A DNA stretch of 64,000 bases from Dethiobacter sp. (GTDB taxonomy: Bacteria > Bacillota > Dethiobacteria > DTU022 > UBA8154), in contig QZJM01000049.1 in the NCBI GenBank assembly GCA_003605065.1, positions 208-64,207 of the forward strand. Direction: 5' to 3'. The notes beneath the pieces are model-generated. The model saw nothing but the letters and a program-made list of their open reading frames with translations. It had not been told where the DNA came from and searched no databases. A program made the translations under genes and the position numbers. Below, in pieces: positions 10,300 through 22,885 of this stretch (the first letter of the stretch is position 1; the number at the start of each line of letters is the position of its first letter).

Positions 10300-10612
10300 A
10301 TAAATTAAAAAAGCCTCTTGCCCAAATAAGGACGAGAGGCTTGCTTTCGCGGTGCCACCTTAATTGCCGGTAAAAATAATTAACCAGCATCTTTCTCAGG
10401 TACGGCCCAAAATTGCGTGGGCGATACCCTGAACTCTGCTAACGGTGCTCACTCCGGCAAAAACTACTAGGTAATAACCGTTCGTCATGCAATTCTTGAG
10501 TCCATTCGCTCTCTGCGCCTGGACCGGGCTCACACCTTTTCCCGGTTCTCTGGGCCTTCGCTCGAGAGTTACTAGTCTCATTCATAATTTTTTACATTAT
10601 GATGTTAGTTCT
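10300..10612 (-). promoter_or_regulatory. T-box riboswitch leader, putative Trp (UGG) specifier, with intrinsic terminator
   Basis: Minus strand reads AATTAAGGTGGCACCGCGAAAGCAAGCCTCTCGTCC...GGCAAGAGGCTTTTTT (T-box 14-mer plus terminator). Stem I carries AGAGAG-CGAA-UGG-A-CUCAAG, matching the GAA-codon-A specifier context. A second GC hairpin plus U-run lies at about 10241-10260. Confidence 0.75.
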
Positions 10613-16993: not shown

Positions 16994-17866
16994 TTACTGA
17001 AGAGAGCGTCTTACAAACCCGGCCTTTGTTAGTGTTTTTATCGTTTCTTTTTCATCCCCTTTTTCCAAATAACCATGCAGTAAATTTAATTCTTCCAGAA
17101 AAATTTTCAGAGAATCCCTTAAAAAAATTTTATTGGTAGCGAAAATATCATACCACATCGAAGGCTCCCCCATGGCAATACGAGTAGTATCTCTAAACCC
17201 TTTACCGGCAAGGGTAAAAAGCAGTTCATGTTCCTGGCCACAATTTCTTAAAGTATTAACGAGAGCAACAGCGACCATCTGGGGAAGGTGGCTGACCAGA
17301 GCTATCAACCTGTCATGTTCTTCCGGTTCCATTATAAAAGGGTGGGCTCTGATAGCACGGATAGTATCCTGCAGTTTTTCCAGCTTTGTGTTCGATGTAT
17401 GCCGTGTGGGAGTTAATAAATAAACGGCATTTTCCAGCAGGAAGGGATTTGCCGCGGTAACTCCAGCCTGTTCTGAACCGGCCATAGGATGACCGCCTAC
17501 GCCCGTTACTCCTGGAGGTAACACAATTTCCATGGTCTCAACGATCTTTTGCTTCGTACTCCCCACATCAGTTACCAGTGCGCCCTTTTGCAGAGAGGAG
17601 GAAATTTCCCCCAGCACTTTTACGATCTGGCTCACAGGCATGGAAAGGATGACCAGTTCAGCATCCTCTAGGGCTTGTGACAAGTCTGCTGTTTTATCTA
17701 CTGCTCCTCTCTCCCTGGCCTCTACCATGGCCCGGGCATTAACATCGTGTCCCCAGCGCTCCTCCACAACTTTATACTTTCCCAGAGCCATACCCACCGA
17801 GCCTCCGATAAGACCCAGCCCTATAATACAGCATTTTTTAAATAACGGCTTACAGGGTACGGCCAA
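16994..17866 (-). CDS. tyrA: prephenate dehydrogenase
   Basis: 290 aa with IIGLGLIGGS (NAD-binding) and the PDH core. Overlaps aroF by 17 nt. Confidence 0.85.
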   Translation of the reverse strand: MAVPCKPLFKKCCIIGLGLIGGSVGMALGKYKVVEERWGHDVNARAMVEARERGAVDKTADLSQALEDAELVILSMPVSQIVKVLGEISSSLQKGALVTDVGSTKQKIVETMEIVLPPGVTGVGGHPMAGSEQAGVTAANPFLLENAVYLLTPTRHTSNTKLEKLQDTIRAIRAHPFIMEPEEHDRLIALVSHLPQMVAVALVNTLRNCGQEHELLFTLAGKGFRDTTRIAMGEPSMWYDIFATNKIFLRDSLKIFLEELNLLHGYLEKGDEKETIKTLTKAGFVRRSLQ

Positions 17867-18887
17867 CTGTCTGTGCCACTCCTCTCAATGAACTAATCAT
17901 CTGTGAAAACTTTTCCGGAATTAGCGATTGGGGACCATCACAAAGTGCCTCTTTCGGCGCAGTATGTACCTCTACCAGCAGGCCGTCAGCACCGGCTGCC
18001 ACTGCAGCCAGGCTCATGGAAGGAACCCATTTCCACTTCCCGGTACCATGGCTGGGGTCGACAAATACCGGCAAATGGCTTAACTCTTTTACGATGGGAA
18101 CAGCACTGATATCCAGCGTATTACGGGTATATGTTGTTTCAAAAGTTCGTATTCCTCTTTCACAGAGAATGACCCGCTGGTTTCCACTGCTAAGAAGATA
18201 CTCTGCCGCCATTAACCATTCTTCAATAGTCGCTGACATCCCTCTCTTGATTAAAACAGGTTTATTTAGCTGCCCCAGTTCTGTAAGCAGCTTAAAATTT
18301 TGCATATTGCGTGCACCCACCTGGATTATATCGGCATAGCGGGCAACAATTTCCACGGAGTGCTGGTCCAGCACTTCTGTTATGATGGGAAGACCGGTTA
18401 TATCCCTGGCCTCGGCCATAATTTTCAAACCTTCTTCTTCCAGGCCTTGAAAGCTGTACGGAGAAGTGCGCGGCTTATATGCCCCCCCTCTTAAAATATC
18501 CGCCCCCCCTTTTTTTACAGCTTCAGCGACTTGAAGATATGATTCCCTTCCCTCAACGGCACACGGCCCGGCTACCAGGACTACTTTCCCACCGCCGATT
18601 TCAACTCCTCCAACTTTGAAAGCGGTCTTTTCCTTCTTGAACTCCCTGCTTACCAGCATGAAAGAGGGTGAAACAAGTATTACTCTTTCTACGGAAGACA
18701 TGGCCTCCAAAGCCTCTTTAACATCTTCCCGGGGGGAGCCGATGGCCCCCAGGATAGTACTGTTCTCGCCGGTGGAACGGTGTATACCATAGCCGAAACT
18801 CCTAATCCTCTTCTCTACCTCCTGAATTTCCTCTTCATCGGCACCTGAATCCATAATAACAATCATAAAAAATCCTCCTCTTAACAA
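17850..18887 (-). CDS. aroF: 3-deoxy-7-phosphoheptulonate (DAHP) synthase, type I-beta with N-terminal regulatory domain
   Basis: 345 aa with an N-terminal ferredoxin-like/ACT-like domain plus the KDO8PS-like TIM barrel (GPCAVE, LIKRG, DPSH), like Thermotoga/Bacillus AroA(G). Confidence 0.85.
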   Translation of the reverse strand: MLRGGFFMIVIMDSGADEEEIQEVEKRIRSFGYGIHRSTGENSTILGAIGSPREDVKEALEAMSSVERVILVSPSFMLVSREFKKEKTAFKVGGVEIGGGKVVLVAGPCAVEGRESYLQVAEAVKKGGADILRGGAYKPRTSPYSFQGLEEEGLKIMAEARDITGLPIITEVLDQHSVEIVARYADIIQVGARNMQNFKLLTELGQLNKPVLIKRGMSATIEEWLMAAEYLLSSGNQRVILCERGIRTFETTYTRNTLDISAVPIVKELSHLPVFVDPSHGTGKWKWVPSMSLAAVAAGADGLLVEVHTAPKEALCDGPQSLIPEKFSQMISSLRGVAQTVGRTL

Positions 18888-18969
18888 TTTATATACAATC
18901 TATTTAACCTGGCTATAAGTATGCGGAACCTGAAGGTCGTAACCTCGGCGAATCAGCACCCCCTTATTA

Positions 18970-19300
18970 AGATCAAAAAACTTCCATCCCATAGGGACGG
19001 AAGTTTAATCTTCACGCGGTACCACCCTGGTTAGGCACATAGTGCCCCCCTCTTATTAGAGTACGGACCAGAATTTTCCGCCCGATACCCTTAATACATA
19101 GTGCTTTTCAGCAGTGGTGTCAGGTACGGACTGAAAGCATTCCAGTCTTATACCCCCTTCCTTTTAACGGTGGAAGTTTCCGTCAAAGCCTACTAACCGT
19201 TAAGGCGTTATCGGCTTTCGGTTTGCTTCTCAGGAGTGTATTTCAGCAATTTAGGACACCGGGTCGCACCATCCCCCGGCTCTCTGAGATCCGTTTATTA
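18970..19300 (-). promoter_or_regulatory. T-box riboswitch leader (complete), putative Tyr (UAC) specifier, terminator 18974-19006
   Basis: Minus strand reads AACCAGGGTGGTACCGCGTGAAGATTAAACTTCCGTCCCTATGGGATGGAAGTTTTTT. Upstream are an F-box-like CCGTTAAAAGG and a Stem I carrying AGAGAG...GAUGGUG...GAAAUACAC (AA-UAC-A). Confidence 0.7.
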
Positions 19301-19386
19301 CCTACTTCTCTCCGTCATCGCTTTACTTAATTTTCTTGTACCGAACCGATGTTTAACCGGTAATACCAGCTTCTTCTCTACCTTTT

Positions 19387-19500
19387 CCGGTTCTTCAGCC
19401 TACGACTCCAGAGGGAACTTCTTCTGGTCGTTATACTGAGAGGCTTTCAGCCTGCGACCTCTCATCTCTGTGGAAAACATCACCAGATTACTTTCCTCTT
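19387..19500 (-). promoter_or_regulatory. additional T-box Stem I-like module at 5' end of aroF leader (homolog of pheA Stem I; GAAGUUCCC specifier context)
   Basis: Minus strand reads AAGAGGAAAGTA...CACAGAGATGAGAGGTCGCAGGCTGAAAGCC...GAAGTTCCCTCTGGAGTCGTAGGCTGAAG. This is about 70% identical to pheA leader Stem I (19676-19790, plus strand). No T-box 14-mer or terminator of its own was seen. Confidence 0.55.
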
Positions 19501-19541
19501 TCCTTGTCTTTGGTTAATTTAAAATTAAATAATTAACTTTA

Positions 19542-19570
19542 ATTTTAGCACAGGGTTTTTACTCTGTCAA
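19542..19570 (-). promoter_or_regulatory. sigma-A type promoter for aroF supraoperon leader (TTGACA-17-TAAAAT)
   Basis: Reverse complement of 19542-19570 gives TTGACAgagtaaaaaccctgtgcTAAAAT. The leader begins about 35 nt downstream with GAAAGAGGAAAGTA. Confidence 0.6.
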
Positions 19571-19623
19571 CTATTTTTTTCTTGAAAAATTTTTTTTGAA
19601 AAGGATTTGAAAAAGAATTTTTG

Positions 19624-19653
19624 TTGACACCGGGCAGGTTCCTATGCTAATAT
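19624..19653 (+). promoter_or_regulatory. sigma-A type promoter for pheA leader (TTGACA-18-TAATAT)
   Basis: TTGACAccgggcaggttcctatgcTAATAT on the plus strand, back-to-back with the aroF promoter. Confidence 0.6.
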
Positions 19654-19659
19654 TACACA

Positions 19660-19990
19660 AAATTATAGTAAAAAAGGCATTGAAAGAGGAAAGTACGCCG
19701 TAATGCTTGCCGCAGAGAGGTAGGGTCGTGGCTGAAAGCCCTGCCAGAAGAGCACCCGGCCGAAGTTCCCTCCGGAGCCGCAGGCTGAAACGCCTTAATA
19801 TCCTTTCTTCGGATTATAAGGGGAGAGTAGGCTGTGCCGGGTTTTTCGCCCGTTAAGAATGAAACGGGAATCGGATCCCTAAAGGTAAAGGGATCCCGCT
19901 CCTGAAAGAGAGGGCTTTGTACGAAGCCAACAAGGGTGGTACCGCGGAAGTAACTTTCTGTCCCTGGACAGGAAGTTTTTTTATTTAAAC
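19660..19990 (+). promoter_or_regulatory. T-box riboswitch leader for pheA (putative Phe UUC specifier) with terminator 19951-19986
   Basis: GA motif TGAAAGAGGAAAGTA, an AGAGAG element, specifier-context GAAGUUCCC, F-box CGCCCGTTAAGAATGAAACGGG, T-box AACAAGGGTGGTACCGCGGAAG, then AACTTTCTGTCCCTGGACAGGAAGTTTTTTT. Confidence 0.75.
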
Positions 19991-20070
19991 ATACGGTTAC
20001 ACTTTCGTCCCTGCGATCGTGTCAACCTTTATTTTTTACAAAATAAGTATTAATGAGGAGGCGGTTAACG

Positions 20071-20904
20071 ATGGGCAATTTAATAGGCTACCTGGGACCA
20101 CCAGGAACCTTTACAGAAGAAGCAGCCAGGAGATATGGTAACAGCCGGACTTTTTTGCTAAGGCCCTACCCTACTATTGACGGGGTTTTTGCGGCCGTAG
20201 CCAAAAAAGAAATAGACCAGGGTGTGGTTCCTGTAGAAAACTCCCTGGAGGGATCCGTAAACCTGACTCTTGACCTGCTTTCCGGAAATACTGATGTTAA
20301 AATAAAGGGTGAACTGCTCTGCAGGATAAAGCATTTCCTCCTGGCCCGTCCCGGGCAAAATCCGGTTAAAATAAAAGAGGTGTACTCCCACCCTCAGGCC
20401 CTGGCCCAGTGCCGCTTTTATTTAGATAAACTCTTTCCCGAGGCTTCCCGTATCAGTATGTCCAGTACCGCAGAGGCTGCTGCACTGGTGGCCCAGAGTG
20501 AGGGGAAGGCTGTTATCGCCTCCCGGCGAGCTGCCAGGCTTTACGGCCTGAAGATTCTCCAGGCAAACATCCAGGATGAACCTTTTAATATTACCCGCTT
20601 TTTCCTCCTCGCCCTGGAGGATGCTCCTCGCACGGGAGACGATAAAACTTCTTTATTAATCGGGCTGCACGATAAGCCGGGAAGCCTGTTCTCAGCACTG
20701 GGAATATTTGCCGGCTATAATCTGAACCTGACGAAAATCGAATCACGACCTGTCCGGGGTGAACTGGGGAAATATATATTTTTTCTGGATATTGAGGGAC
20801 ACCGGGAAGATAAAAAAGTTGCCCATGCACTGAAAGAGATGGAAGAAAAAGCCTTATTTTTAAAAGTACTGGGAAGTTATCCCCACGCCGATACCCGTAT
20901 ATAA
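20071..20904 (+). CDS. pheA: prephenate dehydratase (PDT + ACT domain)
   Basis: The track ORF starts at 20053, but that ATG lies inside the RBS ATGAGGAGG. The probable start is the ATG at 20071 (MGNLIGYLGPPGTFTEEAA). C-terminal ACT domain (ESRP, GHRED). Confidence 0.88.
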   Translation: MGNLIGYLGPPGTFTEEAARRYGNSRTFLLRPYPTIDGVFAAVAKKEIDQGVVPVENSLEGSVNLTLDLLSGNTDVKIKGELLCRIKHFLLARPGQNPVKIKEVYSHPQALAQCRFYLDKLFPEASRISMSSTAEAAALVAQSEGKAVIASRRAARLYGLKILQANIQDEPFNITRFFLLALEDAPRTGDDKTSLLIGLHDKPGSLFSALGIFAGYNLNLTKIESRPVRGELGKYIFFLDIEGHREDKKVAHALKEMEEKALFLKVLGSYPHADTRI

Positions 20905-22556: not shown

Positions 22557-22730
22557 TTAAAAATAAAAACGGGCCATCCAGGGCCCGTAACCACATTCAA
22601 ATCATGTAAATCACCTTCCCTACGCTGGCATTACCCAGAGCGAAAATTAAAATTTCGCCGAACAGGTTCGAAGGGTTGAGGAACTTCATAGCGTCCCCTC
22701 TCAGCCCCACTCAGGAGCACCCCTGGAAAT
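22557..22730 (-). promoter_or_regulatory. TPP (THI-box) riboswitch with intrinsic terminator, upstream of thiC
   Basis: Minus strand reads GGGGTGCTCCTGAGTGGGGCTGAGAGG...ACCCTTCGAACCTGTTCGG...CTCTGGGTAATGCCAGCGTAGGGAAGG, then ACGGGCCCTGGATGGCCCGTTTTTATTTTT. The promoter TTGTCA-17-TATACT lies at 22745-22773 (minus). Confidence 0.85.
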
Positions 22731-22885
22731 ATGTAGTTTTTTTAAGTATAACACCTGAAGGTTTTTTTGACAAGTTCTTTTAAAGCCGATCAATACATAT
22801 TTGAGCAAATTCCTATCAGAAGCTGGGGAGGGACATGGAAAGAATGGCCGATCCGCGCATGAAGAAAGGCTAAGGGATACGCCTC

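What the first reader, a model, noticed from the sequence alone, without database searches (positions are those of the whole stretch)
18960..19990. Back-to-back promoters feeding divergent T-box leaders that share a homologous Stem I; aroF leader is composite (Phe-like Stem I + complete Tyr T-box)
Two sigma-A promoters (minus 19542-19570, plus 19624-19653) lie about 55 bp apart. Both transcripts begin with GAAAGAGGAAAGUA and a roughly 115-nt Stem I that are about 70% identical between strands, so the region is a large imperfect inverted duplication. Both Stem I copies display GAAGUUCCC in the specifier position (UUC, Phe). On the pheA side the T-box is complete. On the aroF side the duplicated Stem I has no antiterminator of its own. 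It is fused upstream of a second, complete T-box whose specifier loop reads AA-UAC-A (Tyr). Dual Phe plus Tyr sensing on a DAHP-synthase/tyrA operon is biologically sensible. A lone Stem I as tRNA-capture module is unusual. The Phe specifier assignment is uncertain because C, not a purine, follows UUC.
Basis: seen in the sequence. Interest (0 to 1): 0.7.

Follow-up and report, generated by a model that had tools for sequence, protein, structure and literature searches.

The report
Two-codon T-box leader before aroF
The leader of an aromatic amino-acid operon in a Dethiobacter genome has an extra, well-conserved phenylalanine tRNA-docking arm with no switch of its own, sitting in front of a complete tyrosine T-box riboswitch, so one terminator may listen to two amino acids.

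Summary
Two strong sigma-70-type promoters lie back to back, 54 bp apart. On the plus strand a complete Phe (UUC) T-box precedes pheA. On the minus strand a complete Tyr (UAC) T-box precedes aroF-tyrA-aroACBEKQH. Between the minus-strand promoter and the Tyr T-box lies a 105-nt Phe-type Stem I (19508-19404) that has no Stem III, antiterminator or terminator.

The same composite leader occurs in nine distinct Dethiobacteria-related genomes. The orphan Stem I is as conserved as the working Tyr Stem I (83% vs 82%), while the flanking spacers reach about 55%. Its length is constant, its tRNA-contact motifs never vary, and its helices show compensatory changes. It persists in genomes where the pheA T-box has lost its own Stem I, and two lineages deleted it.

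It is therefore a selected element, a "partially tandem" T-box. One review names this architecture and says its mode of action is unknown.

My best inference, untested, is that it adds a tRNA-Phe input to the single Tyr discriminator, giving OR-type logic. One possible route is pairing of its conserved 3' tail with the Tyr Stem II 3' strand.

It is a new variant of a known kind and of moderate to high interest.

The parts
19542..19570 (-). aroF-side promoter (-35 TTGACA 19570-19565; TG-extended -10 TAAAAT 19547-19542)
   Evidence: The -35 box and the TG-extended -10 are conserved in all composite leaders.
19404..19508 (-). Orphan Phe-type Stem I. K-turn strands GAC(19508-19506)...GGAGUC(19409-19404). 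Specifier loop GAA-G-UUC-C at 19421-19414, codon UUC at 19417-19415. AG bulge CAGAGA at 19470-19465. Distal loop GGCUGAAAGCC at 19452-19442.
   Evidence: Rfam partial match, 46.4 bits. Nine-species alignment: 25 pairs, 95.5% paired, 6 pairs with changes on both sides. Mean pairwise identity 82.7% and constant length of 107-108 nt.
19387..19403 (-). Conserved 'tail' G-YR-GGCU-GAAR-AACCG. It is the 5' strand of a former Phe Stem II, including the GAA half of the S-turn, and has no conserved local partner.
   Evidence: Alignments. Conservation is 74-79%, against about 55% for the spacer. It is complementary to the Tyr Stem II 3' strand.
19328..19386 (-). Variable spacer between the two modules (33-75 nt across species). 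No conserved fold, no T-box sequence, no terminator.
18990..19327 (-). Complete Tyr T-box. Specifier GAA-A-UAC-A at 19244-19237. Stem II 3' strand CGGUUAGUAGGCUUUGAC at 19199-19182. Duplicated linker hairpin, with the extra copy at about 19121-19061. T-box bulge UGGU at 19024-19021.
   Evidence: Rfam 115.1 bits. Alignments with relatives.
18970..19006 (-). Intrinsic terminator of the Tyr T-box (13-bp stem followed by a U run)
17850..18866 (-). aroF (DAHP synthase), first gene of aroF-tyrA-aroA-aroC-aroB-aroE-aroK-aroQ-aroH
   Evidence: The protein is 100% identical to one from a Dethiobacter sp. MAG.
19624..19653 (+). pheA-side promoter (TTGACA-18-TAATAT, with upstream TG)
   Evidence: A homologous promoter is retained in L002.
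19671..19968 (+). Complete Phe T-box. Specifier GAA-G-UUC-C at 19762-19769. T-box sequence at 19935-19946.
   Evidence: Rfam 91.8 bits, full-length alignment.
19952..19984 (+). Intrinsic terminator of the pheA T-box
20053..20904 (+). pheA (prephenate dehydratase)

Best explanation
The aroF leader is a partially tandem, two-specificity T-box.

**Shown.**
- One promoter drives a transcript that starts with a structurally intact Phe-type Stem I, carrying a K-turn, an S-turn specifier loop with UUC, and a distal tRNA-elbow platform. This Stem I has no Stem III, antiterminator or terminator.
- A variable spacer follows, then a complete Tyr (UAC) T-box whose terminator gates aroF-tyrA-aroACBEKQH.
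- The orphan arm is under purifying selection in nine species.

**Inferred.**
- The orphan arm still docks tRNA-Phe by anticodon and elbow.
- Stem I cannot read aminoacylation. For Phe to be sensed, the 3' end of that tRNA must use the only discriminator on the transcript, the Tyr T-box bulge UGGU. That bulge suits the A73 that I take both tRNAs to have.
- Uncharged tRNA-Phe or uncharged tRNA-Tyr would then stabilise the same antiterminator. This OR gate would turn on the common aromatic pathway when either end product is short.

**A possible structural route.** The conserved tail after the orphan arm can replace the Tyr module's own 5' strand in Stem II. That would place the shared S-turn, IIA/B pseudoknot and discriminator next to the Phe codon.
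For: **Anatomy.**

**Same architecture elsewhere.** It occurs in window, L001, L002, L003, L016, L083, L089/L107, L097 and L103. Seven of these were found through the AroF protein, so they are not biased by the RNA pattern.

**Conservation of the orphan Stem I.**
- 82.7% mean pairwise identity, against 82.0% for the Tyr Stem I and 54.7% for the spacer.
- Length fixed at 107-108 nt, while the spacer varies from 33 to 75 nt.

**Covariation.**
- 95.5% of cells are paired, against 39-50% when the partners are slid.
- 6 pairs changed on both sides. GAGG/CCUC versus AAGG/CCUU splits 5:4.
- 0 of 500 shuffles reach the observed paired fraction, covariation score or count of cells changed on both sides. 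4 of 500 reach the count of 6 pairs, and the pair-type count is no better than the shuffles.

**Invariant motifs.** AAAGUA, CAGAGA, GGCUGAAAGCC and GAAGUUCCCU never vary, while loop positions with no known role vary freely.

**Not kept by gene conversion.**
- The orphans form their own clade.
- They persist where the pheA leader has lost its Stem I (L002) or its whole T-box (L003).

**Physiology.** The operon makes every enzyme from DAHP to prephenate plus TyrA, so Phe synthesis depends on it. No second aroF lies in the window. Relatives L004, L007 and L106, which have a simple Tyr T-box, carry a separate Phe-T-box-driven aroF paralogue with pheA.

**Strand swap.**
- The tail pairs with the Tyr Stem II 3' strand in canonical Stem II form, at -9 to -14.5 kcal/mol in most species. 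It does so better than shuffled tails in 5 of 9 species.
- With untrimmed tails, the pairing is about 3 kcal/mol better than for tails of ordinary Phe T-boxes.
- The window's unconstrained 328-nt minimum-free-energy fold contains this helix.

**Linked feature.** All composites share a duplicated linker hairpin. L104 lost both that hairpin and the orphan.
Against: - No experiment exists. tRNA-Phe binding and any use of the downstream discriminator are inferred.
- The orphan lies about 390 nt upstream of the T-box bulge. I know of no T-box shown to work over that distance.
- Two lineages deleted the orphan and kept the Tyr T-box (L017, L104), so it is dispensable.
- L006 has pheA alone behind its Phe T-box and still a simple Tyr leader. 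The 'missing aroF paralogue' rationale is therefore not strict.
- By the same logic a Trp input would be expected, and none is present.
- The strand-swap pairing is weak or absent in L003 and L002. It lacks two-sided covariation because the 3' strand never varies.
- That pairing is partly explained by shared ancestry of Stem II strands. Ordinary Phe tails reach -11 kcal/mol against the same strand.
- Single-sequence folding of the orphan is no better than shuffles, z = -0.26.
- There are no tRNA genes in the window, so N73 could not be checked.
Confidence: 0.45

Rival explanations
1. The orphan Stem I is functional but does not sense Phe charging. It binds tRNA-Phe, or simply folds, at the 5' end of the transcript. 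There it protects the mRNA from 5' exonuclease, helps or insulates folding of the Tyr T-box, or tunes basal read-through. The regulatory decision stays purely Tyr-dependent.
For: - Stem I alone cannot tell charged from uncharged tRNA (PMC7583486).
- The orphan sits at the extreme 5' end, about 25-35 nt after the predicted start.
- It is selected yet dispensable in L017 and L104, as an accessory element might be.
- No conserved structure links it to the discriminator with two-sided covariation.
Against: - A mere 5' stabiliser would not need an invariant UUC codon, S-turn and elbow platform.
- It would not need the conserved Stem II 5' strand either.
- The specifier matches an amino acid whose synthesis depends on this operon.
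Confidence: 0.27
2. The orphan is a non-functional relic. It would be left from an ancestral full Phe T-box in front of aroF, or from an inverted duplication of the pheA leader, whose 3' half was deleted. It is simply decaying slowly.
For: - Simple Phe T-boxes in front of aroF are common in other Bacillota: L019, L020, L081, L082, L086, L087, L090, L092.
- L095 shows a complete Phe T-box with an orphan-type Stem I.
- Clean deletions of the orphan occurred twice.
Against: - Conservation equals that of the working Tyr Stem I, while the adjacent spacers are barely alignable.
- Compensatory changes keep the helices intact.
- All tRNA-contact motifs are invariant.
- The orphan is retained across AroF divergence down to 69% identity.
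- It is retained in genomes where the pheA T-box itself has decayed.
Confidence: 0.1
3. The leader is an ordinary fully tandem T-box pair with AND logic. The Phe unit would have its own cryptic terminator or antiterminator in the spacer.
For: Fully tandem T-boxes are common in Bacillota, including pairs thought to recognise two different tRNAs (PMC12452182, PMC11477304).
Against: - No T-box sequence, Stem III or terminator-like hairpin with a U run lies between 19328 and 19404.
- The spacer shrinks to 33 nt in L002 and L083.
- The covariance model skips the whole discriminator.
Confidence: 0.03
4. The orphan Stem I acts in trans or in cis-proximity on the divergent pheA leader. The two promoters are 54 bp apart, and in L002 the pheA leader keeps only a discriminator. 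The idea is that tRNA-Phe docked on the aroF transcript serves the pheA antiterminator.
For: In L002 the pheA leader runs from the promoter straight into the Stem III, antiterminator and terminator region, with no Stem I or II. The only Phe Stem I nearby is the orphan.
Against: - In the window the pheA T-box is complete.
- In L003 and L104 pheA has no T-box at all.
- In L001, L016 and L103 pheA is not adjacent.
- The L002 discriminator looks degenerate, with bulge UGGC and a weakened helix A1.
- I know of no precedent for trans T-box action.
Confidence: 0.03

Closest known systems
Partially tandem ('partially double') T-box leaders, mentioned in Zhang 2020 (PMC7583486). From my memory, they were first listed by Vitreschak et al. 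2008, RNA 14:717, which I could not read here.
   Same: Two specifier-bearing Stem I arms sit upstream of a single terminator/antiterminator. The mode of action is described as unknown.
   Different: Here the two arms carry different codons (UUC and UAC). The architecture is documented in nine species with covariation, and a specific structural route is proposed. I could not check whether the published examples include this Phe/Tyr aroF leader or any case with two specificities.
Canonical transcriptional T-box riboswitch (Rfam RF00230; B. subtilis tyrS and glyQS)
   Same: The pheA leader and the downstream aroF leader unit have every module: Stem I, Stem II, the IIA/B pseudoknot, Stem III, a T-box bulge UGGN, and competing terminator and antiterminator folds.
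   Different: The upstream unit is Stem I plus half of Stem II only. All Phe-type arms here have a paired C, not the usual unpaired purine, 3' of the codon. The Tyr unit carries a duplicated linker hairpin.
Fully tandem T-boxes (trp operons, thrS/thrZ, ilv-leu; C. difficile hom with two T-boxes thought to read two tRNAs)
   Same: There are several tRNA-reading units in one leader. Pairs with two different specificities exist.
   Different: In those, each unit has its own terminator, so read-through needs all units satisfied (AND, or a sharper response). Here there is one terminator, so the logic cannot be that of two serial gates.
Tandem-aptamer riboswitches with a single expression platform (glycine riboswitch)
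   Same: Two ligand-binding domains feed one expression platform.
   Different: The ligand there is a small molecule, and both aptamers bind the same one. This is an analogy only, with no homology.

Membership tests
T-box leader (RF00230): downstream aroF unit, 19327-18990 | Full-length covariance-model match at or above the gathering score (93 bits) | tested here: met
   115.1 bits, model positions 1-219
T-box leader (RF00230): pheA unit, 19671-19968 | Full-length covariance-model match at or above the gathering score (93 bits) | tested here: inconclusive
   91.8 bits, 1.2 bits short. The match is full length (1-219) with E = 2e-20, and has a T-box sequence, a terminator and a Phe codon in front of pheA.
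T-box leader (RF00230): orphan unit, 19513-19328 | Stem I with K-turn, S-turn specifier loop with a codon, AG bulge and distal loop | tested here: met
   Covariance-model alignment. Covariation in nine species and invariant motifs.
T-box leader (RF00230): orphan unit, 19513-19328 | Stem III and an antiterminator with a UGGN bulge, competing with an intrinsic terminator | tested here: not met
   The covariance model skips these positions, giving 46.4 bits. There is no terminator-like site and no T-box sequence at 19328-19404.
T-box leader (RF00230): orphan unit, 19513-19328 | Complete Stem II with the S-turn (GAA/AGUA) and a IIA/B pseudoknot (F-box CCGUUA) | tested here: not met
   Only the 5' strand is conserved. 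The local 3' partners differ between species, and a GGUA remnant occurs only in window, L002 and L083.
T-box leader: all three units | Binding of the cognate tRNA, and antitermination dependent on uncharged tRNA | not testable with these tools
   This needs biochemistry or genetics. There are no tRNA genes in the window.
T-box leader: all three units | The specifier codon matches the pathway of the regulated genes | tested here: met
   UUC precedes pheA. UAC (and UUC) precede aroF-tyrA and the aro genes.
Partially tandem T-box | Two Stem I specifier arms on one transcript, followed by one terminator/antiterminator | tested here: met
   The same layout is seen in nine species.
Fully tandem T-boxes | Each unit has its own terminator/antiterminator | tested here: not met
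   There is a single T-box sequence and a single terminator on the minus-strand leader.

The most novel reading that the evidence does not exclude
This would be a true two-input T-box. Two decoding arms of different specificity (Phe and Tyr) compete for one Stem II 3' strand, one IIA/B pseudoknot and one discriminator. Either uncharged tRNA could then prevent termination. It would be a natural OR gate built inside a single tRNA-sensing riboswitch, and the first mechanism for the 'partially tandem' T-box class.
Probability: 0.3. Interest if true: 0.8.

Novelty: new variant of a known kind. Interest (0 to 1): 0.6.

Why it matters
T-boxes are the model for RNA that reads tRNA identity and charging. 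The field's own review lists partially tandem T-boxes as an open problem with unknown mode of action.

This locus offers a compact and conserved test case.
- The two codons differ at one position (UUC and UAC).
- The physiological rationale is clear. The operon supplies the precursors for both Phe and Tyr, while pheA is regulated separately.
- Natural deletion variants exist (L017, L104).
- There is a concrete structural hypothesis that can be mutated.

If one discriminator can serve two decoding arms, two consequences follow. Stem I and the discriminator would be shown to be separable modules over hundreds of nucleotides. T-boxes could also compute OR logic, where tandem units give AND logic, which matters for understanding branched-pathway control and for engineering.

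Tried and rejected
**Thermodynamic folding.** Single-sequence folding of the orphan does not recover Stem I and is no better than shuffles (z = -0.26). T-box Stem I is rich in non-canonical motifs, so I relied on the covariance model and on covariation.

**Gene conversion from the neighbouring pheA Stem I.** Rejected as the reason for conservation. The orphans form their own clade, and they persist where pheA has no Stem I.

**A private mini Stem II with an S-turn in the spacer.** A GAAG...GGUA arrangement exists only in window, L002 and L083. The spacer has no conserved fold.

**A cryptic terminator after the orphan.** None was found.

**Pairing of the orphan specifier region (GAAGUU) with the terminator 5' strand (AACUUC).** Not conserved, for example in L016. 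Dismissed as chance.

**Pairing of the tail with the 3' strand of linker hairpin 1.** It recurs in the duplex search, but that strand has a strong local partner and the register shifts between species. Not pursued.

**Cognate versus non-cognate tail and Stem II strand energies.** The means are -14.7 against -13.9 kcal/mol, so there is no clear co-evolution signal.

**A fully tandem Phe + Tyr ancestor.** None was found among 80 genome loci or in the 22 metagenome loci and 10 extra loci inspected. L095 is a complete Phe T-box with an orphan-type Stem I, but its contig is cut at the T-box, so its downstream gene is unknown.

**Literature.** Vitreschak 2008 and Gutierrez-Preciado 2009 are not held. 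Searches for 'partially double', 'two specifier' and similar terms found no description of this leader.

**tRNA discriminator base.** It could not be checked, because there are no tRNA genes in the window.
Full report
**1. What is in the window**

*Promoters.* The 18960-19990 region is an intergenic control region between two divergent transcription units. The promoter scan finds TTGACA-17-TAAAAT on the minus strand (19570..19542, 11 of 12, with an upstream TG). It finds TTGACA-18-TAATAT on the plus strand (19624..19653, 10 of 12, with TG). The -35 boxes are 54 bp apart.

*Genes.*
- Plus strand: pheA (20053-20904).
- Minus strand: aroF (18866-17850), tyrA, aroA, aroC, aroB, aroE, aroK, aroQ and aroH (chorismate mutase).
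- An internal Trp T-box (10594-10325) then follows, and after it trpD, trpC, trpF and trpB.
- AroF is 100% identical to a protein of a Dethiobacter sp. MAG.

**2. Three T-box-like elements**

Rfam RF00230 matches three places.

| Place | Strand | Bits | What aligns |
|---|---|---|---|
| 19327-18990 | minus | 115.1 (gathering score 93) | Complete |
| 19671-19968 | plus | 91.8 (E = 2e-20) | Full length, just under the gathering score |
| 19513-19328 | minus | 46.4 (E = 9e-9) | Stem I and the start of Stem II only |

- In the third match, the model's Stem III and antiterminator positions are skipped.
- The covariance model puts GAA-G-UUC-C at the specifier position of both Phe-type copies. It puts GAA-A-UAC-A there in the complete minus-strand unit.
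- Each complete unit ends in a T-box sequence and a strong terminator: 19006-18978 on the minus strand and 19952-19977 on the plus strand.
- No terminator-like site or T-box sequence follows the upstream minus-strand Stem I.
- The pheA leader and the orphan align from the -35 box to the first strand of Stem II at 70% mean column identity.

Two details need adjusting. The predicted transcription starts lie about 22-33 nt upstream of GAAAGAGGAAAGUA. The C after UUC is paired with an invariant G, so it closes the specifier loop rather than replacing the usual stacking purine.

**3. Is the orphan Stem I real and selected?**

*Where the composite leader occurs.* I collected related loci in three ways: through the AroF protein in genome collections, through one RNA-pattern scan of metagenomes, and through contigs encoding AroF homologues. 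The same composite leader is present in nine distinct sequences: window, L001, L002, L003, L016 (=L101), L083, L089 (=L107), L097 and L103. Its order is promoter, Phe-type Stem I with UUC, variable spacer, complete Tyr T-box with UAC, terminator, aroF. Seven of the nine were reached through the protein, so they are not biased by the RNA motif.

*Conservation by segment, in the five-species protein-found set.*

| Segment | Mean pairwise identity | Length |
|---|---|---|
| Orphan Stem I | 82.7% | 107-108 nt, constant |
| Tyr Stem I | 82.0% | 98-101 nt |
| Rest of the Tyr T-box | 83.7% | 210-219 nt |
| Spacer between the modules | 54.7% | 33-64 nt (33-75 in all eight) |
| -10 box to Stem I | 63.7% | 22-31 nt |

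*Covariation on the nine-sequence alignment.*
- A standard Stem I structure of 25 pairs is 95.5% paired, against 39-50% when the partners are slid by 1-3 columns.
- Six pairs have changes on both sides, covering 12 cells.
- No shuffle out of 500 reaches the observed paired fraction, covariation score or count of doubly changed cells. 4 of 500 reach six pairs, and the count of further pair types is no better than the shuffles.
- The helix closing the specifier loop switches GAGG/CCUC to AAGG/CCUU in 4 of 9 sequences.

*Motifs.* The motifs known from T-box structures to contact the tRNA or to build the platform are invariant. These are AAAGUA and GAA (S-turn), UUC, CAGAGA and GGCUGAAAGCC. Loop positions with no assigned role vary.

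Single-sequence folding is uninformative.

**4. Not a by-product of the neighbouring pheA copy**

- A tree of Phe-type Stem I sequences puts all orphans in one clade. That clade is sister to the Dethiobacteria pheA-type arms.
- The window orphan is 90% identical to the L001 orphan but only 68.5% identical to its own pheA arm.
- The orphan survives where the pheA arm is gone. In L002 the pheA promoter runs straight into a discriminator-only remnant with bulge UGGC and a weakened helix A1.
- In L003 pheA has no T-box at all.

Gene conversion therefore cannot explain the conservation.

**5. Distribution and history**

*Other leader types.*
- Most relatives have a simple Tyr T-box in front of aroF-tyrA: L004-L008, L010-L015, L018, L106, L110 and L112.
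- Many more distant Bacillota have a simple Phe T-box in front of aroF or aroF-pheA: L019, L020, L081, L082, L084, L086, L087, L090 and L092.

*Position on the AroF tree.* The composites form one clade of window, L001, L002, L083, L003, L103 and L089, plus the deeper-branching L016.

*Two lineages removed the orphan.*
- L017, sister of L016, has the promoter directly before the Tyr T-box.
- L104, sister of L002 and L083, has an internal deletion joining ...GGAAAG to ACUGAAG....

*Linked hairpin.*
- All composites and L017 carry a duplicated linker hairpin (GGGUAU-hairpin-CCGUAC, twice) that simple Tyr T-boxes lack.
- L104 lost that second copy as well, by collapse between the two GUCCGUAC repeats.

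*A possible ancestor.* L095 is a complete Phe T-box whose Stem I belongs to the orphan clade. Its contig ends at the T-box, so its downstream gene is unknown. A full Phe T-box on aroF as the ancestor is plausible but not shown. No fully tandem Phe + Tyr leader was found.

**6. How it most likely works**

*Shown.*
- The orphan is a selected, structurally intact decoding arm with a Phe codon.
- It has no discriminator.
- There is one terminator on the leader.

*Established knowledge (PMC7583486).*
- Stem I binds tRNA by anticodon and elbow, whether or not the tRNA is charged.
- Charging is read only by the discriminator, that is Stem III plus the antiterminator with the UGGN bulge.
- Stem I and the discriminator are joined by a variable linker.

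*Inference.*
- If the arm contributes Phe sensing, the docked tRNA-Phe must present its 3' end to the only discriminator available. That is the UGGU bulge at 19024-19021, which would suit A73 in both tRNA-Phe and tRNA-Tyr (from my own knowledge, not tested here).
- This gives OR logic. OR logic fits an operon that makes every step to prephenate and is therefore needed for Phe as well as Tyr, while pheA has its own Phe T-box.
- Serial complete T-boxes would give AND logic, which would be maladaptive here.
- Supporting context: relatives L004, L007 and L106 have simple Tyr leaders and a separate aroF paralogue with pheA under a Phe T-box. The window has none within 64 kb. L006 is an exception to this pattern.

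*A candidate structural route.*
- The 17 nt after the orphan arm (19403-19387, G-YR-GGCU-GAAR-AACCG) are conserved although they have no conserved local partner.
- They are the 5' strand of a Stem II, including the GAA half of the S-turn.
- They can pair with the invariant 3' strand of the Tyr Stem II (19199-19182, CGGUU-AGUA-GGCUU...) in canonical form: a 5-bp lower helix, a GAA/AGUA internal loop, and a 4-7 bp upper helix.
- Predicted duplex energies are -9 to -14.5 kcal/mol in most species. That is similar to the Tyr unit's own 5' strand, and better than shuffled tails at p <= 0.05 in window, L016, L083, L089 and L097.
- With untrimmed tails, the pairing is about 3 kcal/mol better than for tails of ordinary Phe T-boxes against the same strand.
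- The unconstrained minimum-free-energy fold of the window's 328-nt leader contains this chimeric helix. The constrained chimeric fold is at least as stable as the 'own' fold in 7 of 8 species.
- In that fold the Tyr Stem I becomes an insertion in the apical part of Stem II. The shared S-turn, pseudoknot and discriminator then sit next to the Phe codon.

*Caveats on that route.*
- The pairing is weak in L002 and absent in L003.
- The 3' strand is invariant, so no two-sided covariation is possible.
- Part of the complementarity reflects common ancestry.
- The first three tail-adjacent bases (GUC, 19406-19404) are needed for the K-turn stem.

I rate the OR-type dual input at about 0.45 and the specific strand-swap route at about 0.3.

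**7. Rivals**

| Rival | Confidence | Main point against it |
|---|---|---|
| A selected accessory arm that does not sense charging (5' stabiliser, folding aid, or tRNA-dependent stability) | 0.27 | It would not need an invariant UUC, S-turn and elbow platform |
| A decaying relic | 0.10 | Contradicted |
| A cryptic full tandem | 0.03 | Contradicted |
| Action on the pheA discriminator in trans | 0.03 | Only the L002 layout suggests it |

**8. Comparison with what is known**

- The two complete units are ordinary T-box members.
- The upstream unit fails the defining discriminator and Stem II tests. It is therefore not a T-box on its own but a T-box module.
- The whole leader fits the 'partially tandem' class. 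The 2020 review names this class and calls it mechanistically unknown.
- From memory, Vitreschak et al. 2008 first listed 'partially double' T-boxes. I could not read that paper, so I cannot say whether this Phe/Tyr aroF case was in it.
- Full tandems that read two different tRNAs are reported, but each of their units has its own terminator.
- I know of no published mechanism or conservation analysis for a partial tandem with two specificities, and none turned up in the searches.

**9. Verdict**

- The element is a conserved two-codon, one-terminator T-box leader. It is a new variant of a known kind.
- It offers a directly testable hypothesis for an acknowledged open question.
- Interest 0.6.

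Noticed in passing
window 10325-10594 (-): A third complete T-box (108 bits) with specifier GAA-UGG-A (Trp). It lies inside the operon, 45 nt after aroH (chorismate mutase, 11029-10640) and before trpD-trpC-trpF-trpB. The aro and trp genes therefore form one supraoperon with an internal Trp gate.
   Followed up: partly
window 22599-22734 (-): TPP riboswitch aptamer upstream of thiC (22405-21113). It scores 51.4 bits, just under the gathering score of 54.3, with E = 3.7e-7.
   Followed up: no
window 19061-19157 (-): The linker of the Tyr T-box holds two tandem copies of a GGGUAU-hairpin-CCGUAC element, separated by a conserved CCUGACACCACU stretch. Simple Tyr aroF T-boxes have one copy. All nine composite leaders and L017 have two. 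L104, which deleted the orphan Stem I, also collapsed the duplication.
   Followed up: partly
window 19577-19615: The AT-rich stretch between the two -35 boxes holds an imperfect palindrome (19577-19602) and three TTTGAAAA repeats about 13-14 bp apart. These may be UP elements or a regulator site shared by both promoters.
   Followed up: no
L002 2084-2330 (- strand): The pheA leader keeps the promoter and then runs directly into Stem III, antiterminator and terminator. It has no Stem I or II, its T-box bulge is UGGC, and helix A1 is weakened. It is a discriminator-only remnant with an intact terminator in front of pheA.
   Followed up: partly
L104 2038-2165: Natural deletion variant of the composite leader. 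The 5' K-turn start of the orphan (AAAGACACUGAAAAAGGAAAG) is joined directly to the tail (ACUGAAGAAUCGG). The divergent pheA in this locus has no T-box.
   Followed up: yes
L004 and L007 (1068-2476, - strand); L106 529-1950: In relatives with a simple Tyr leader, the divergent Phe T-box drives a second DAHP synthase paralogue (about 53% identical to AroF) followed by pheA. Each branch then has its own isozyme.
   Followed up: partly
L095 1-360 (- strand): A complete Phe T-box whose Stem I belongs to the orphan clade and whose backbone resembles the aroF Tyr-type T-box. The contig ends at the T-box sequence, so the regulated gene is unknown. It could represent the ancestral state of the orphan.
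   Followed up: partly
L001 3860-4177: In the closest relative, a Trp-type T-box (GAA-UGG-G, 72 bits) follows aroF directly, and tyrA is not adjacent. Gene order downstream of the composite leader therefore differs between close relatives.
   Followed up: no
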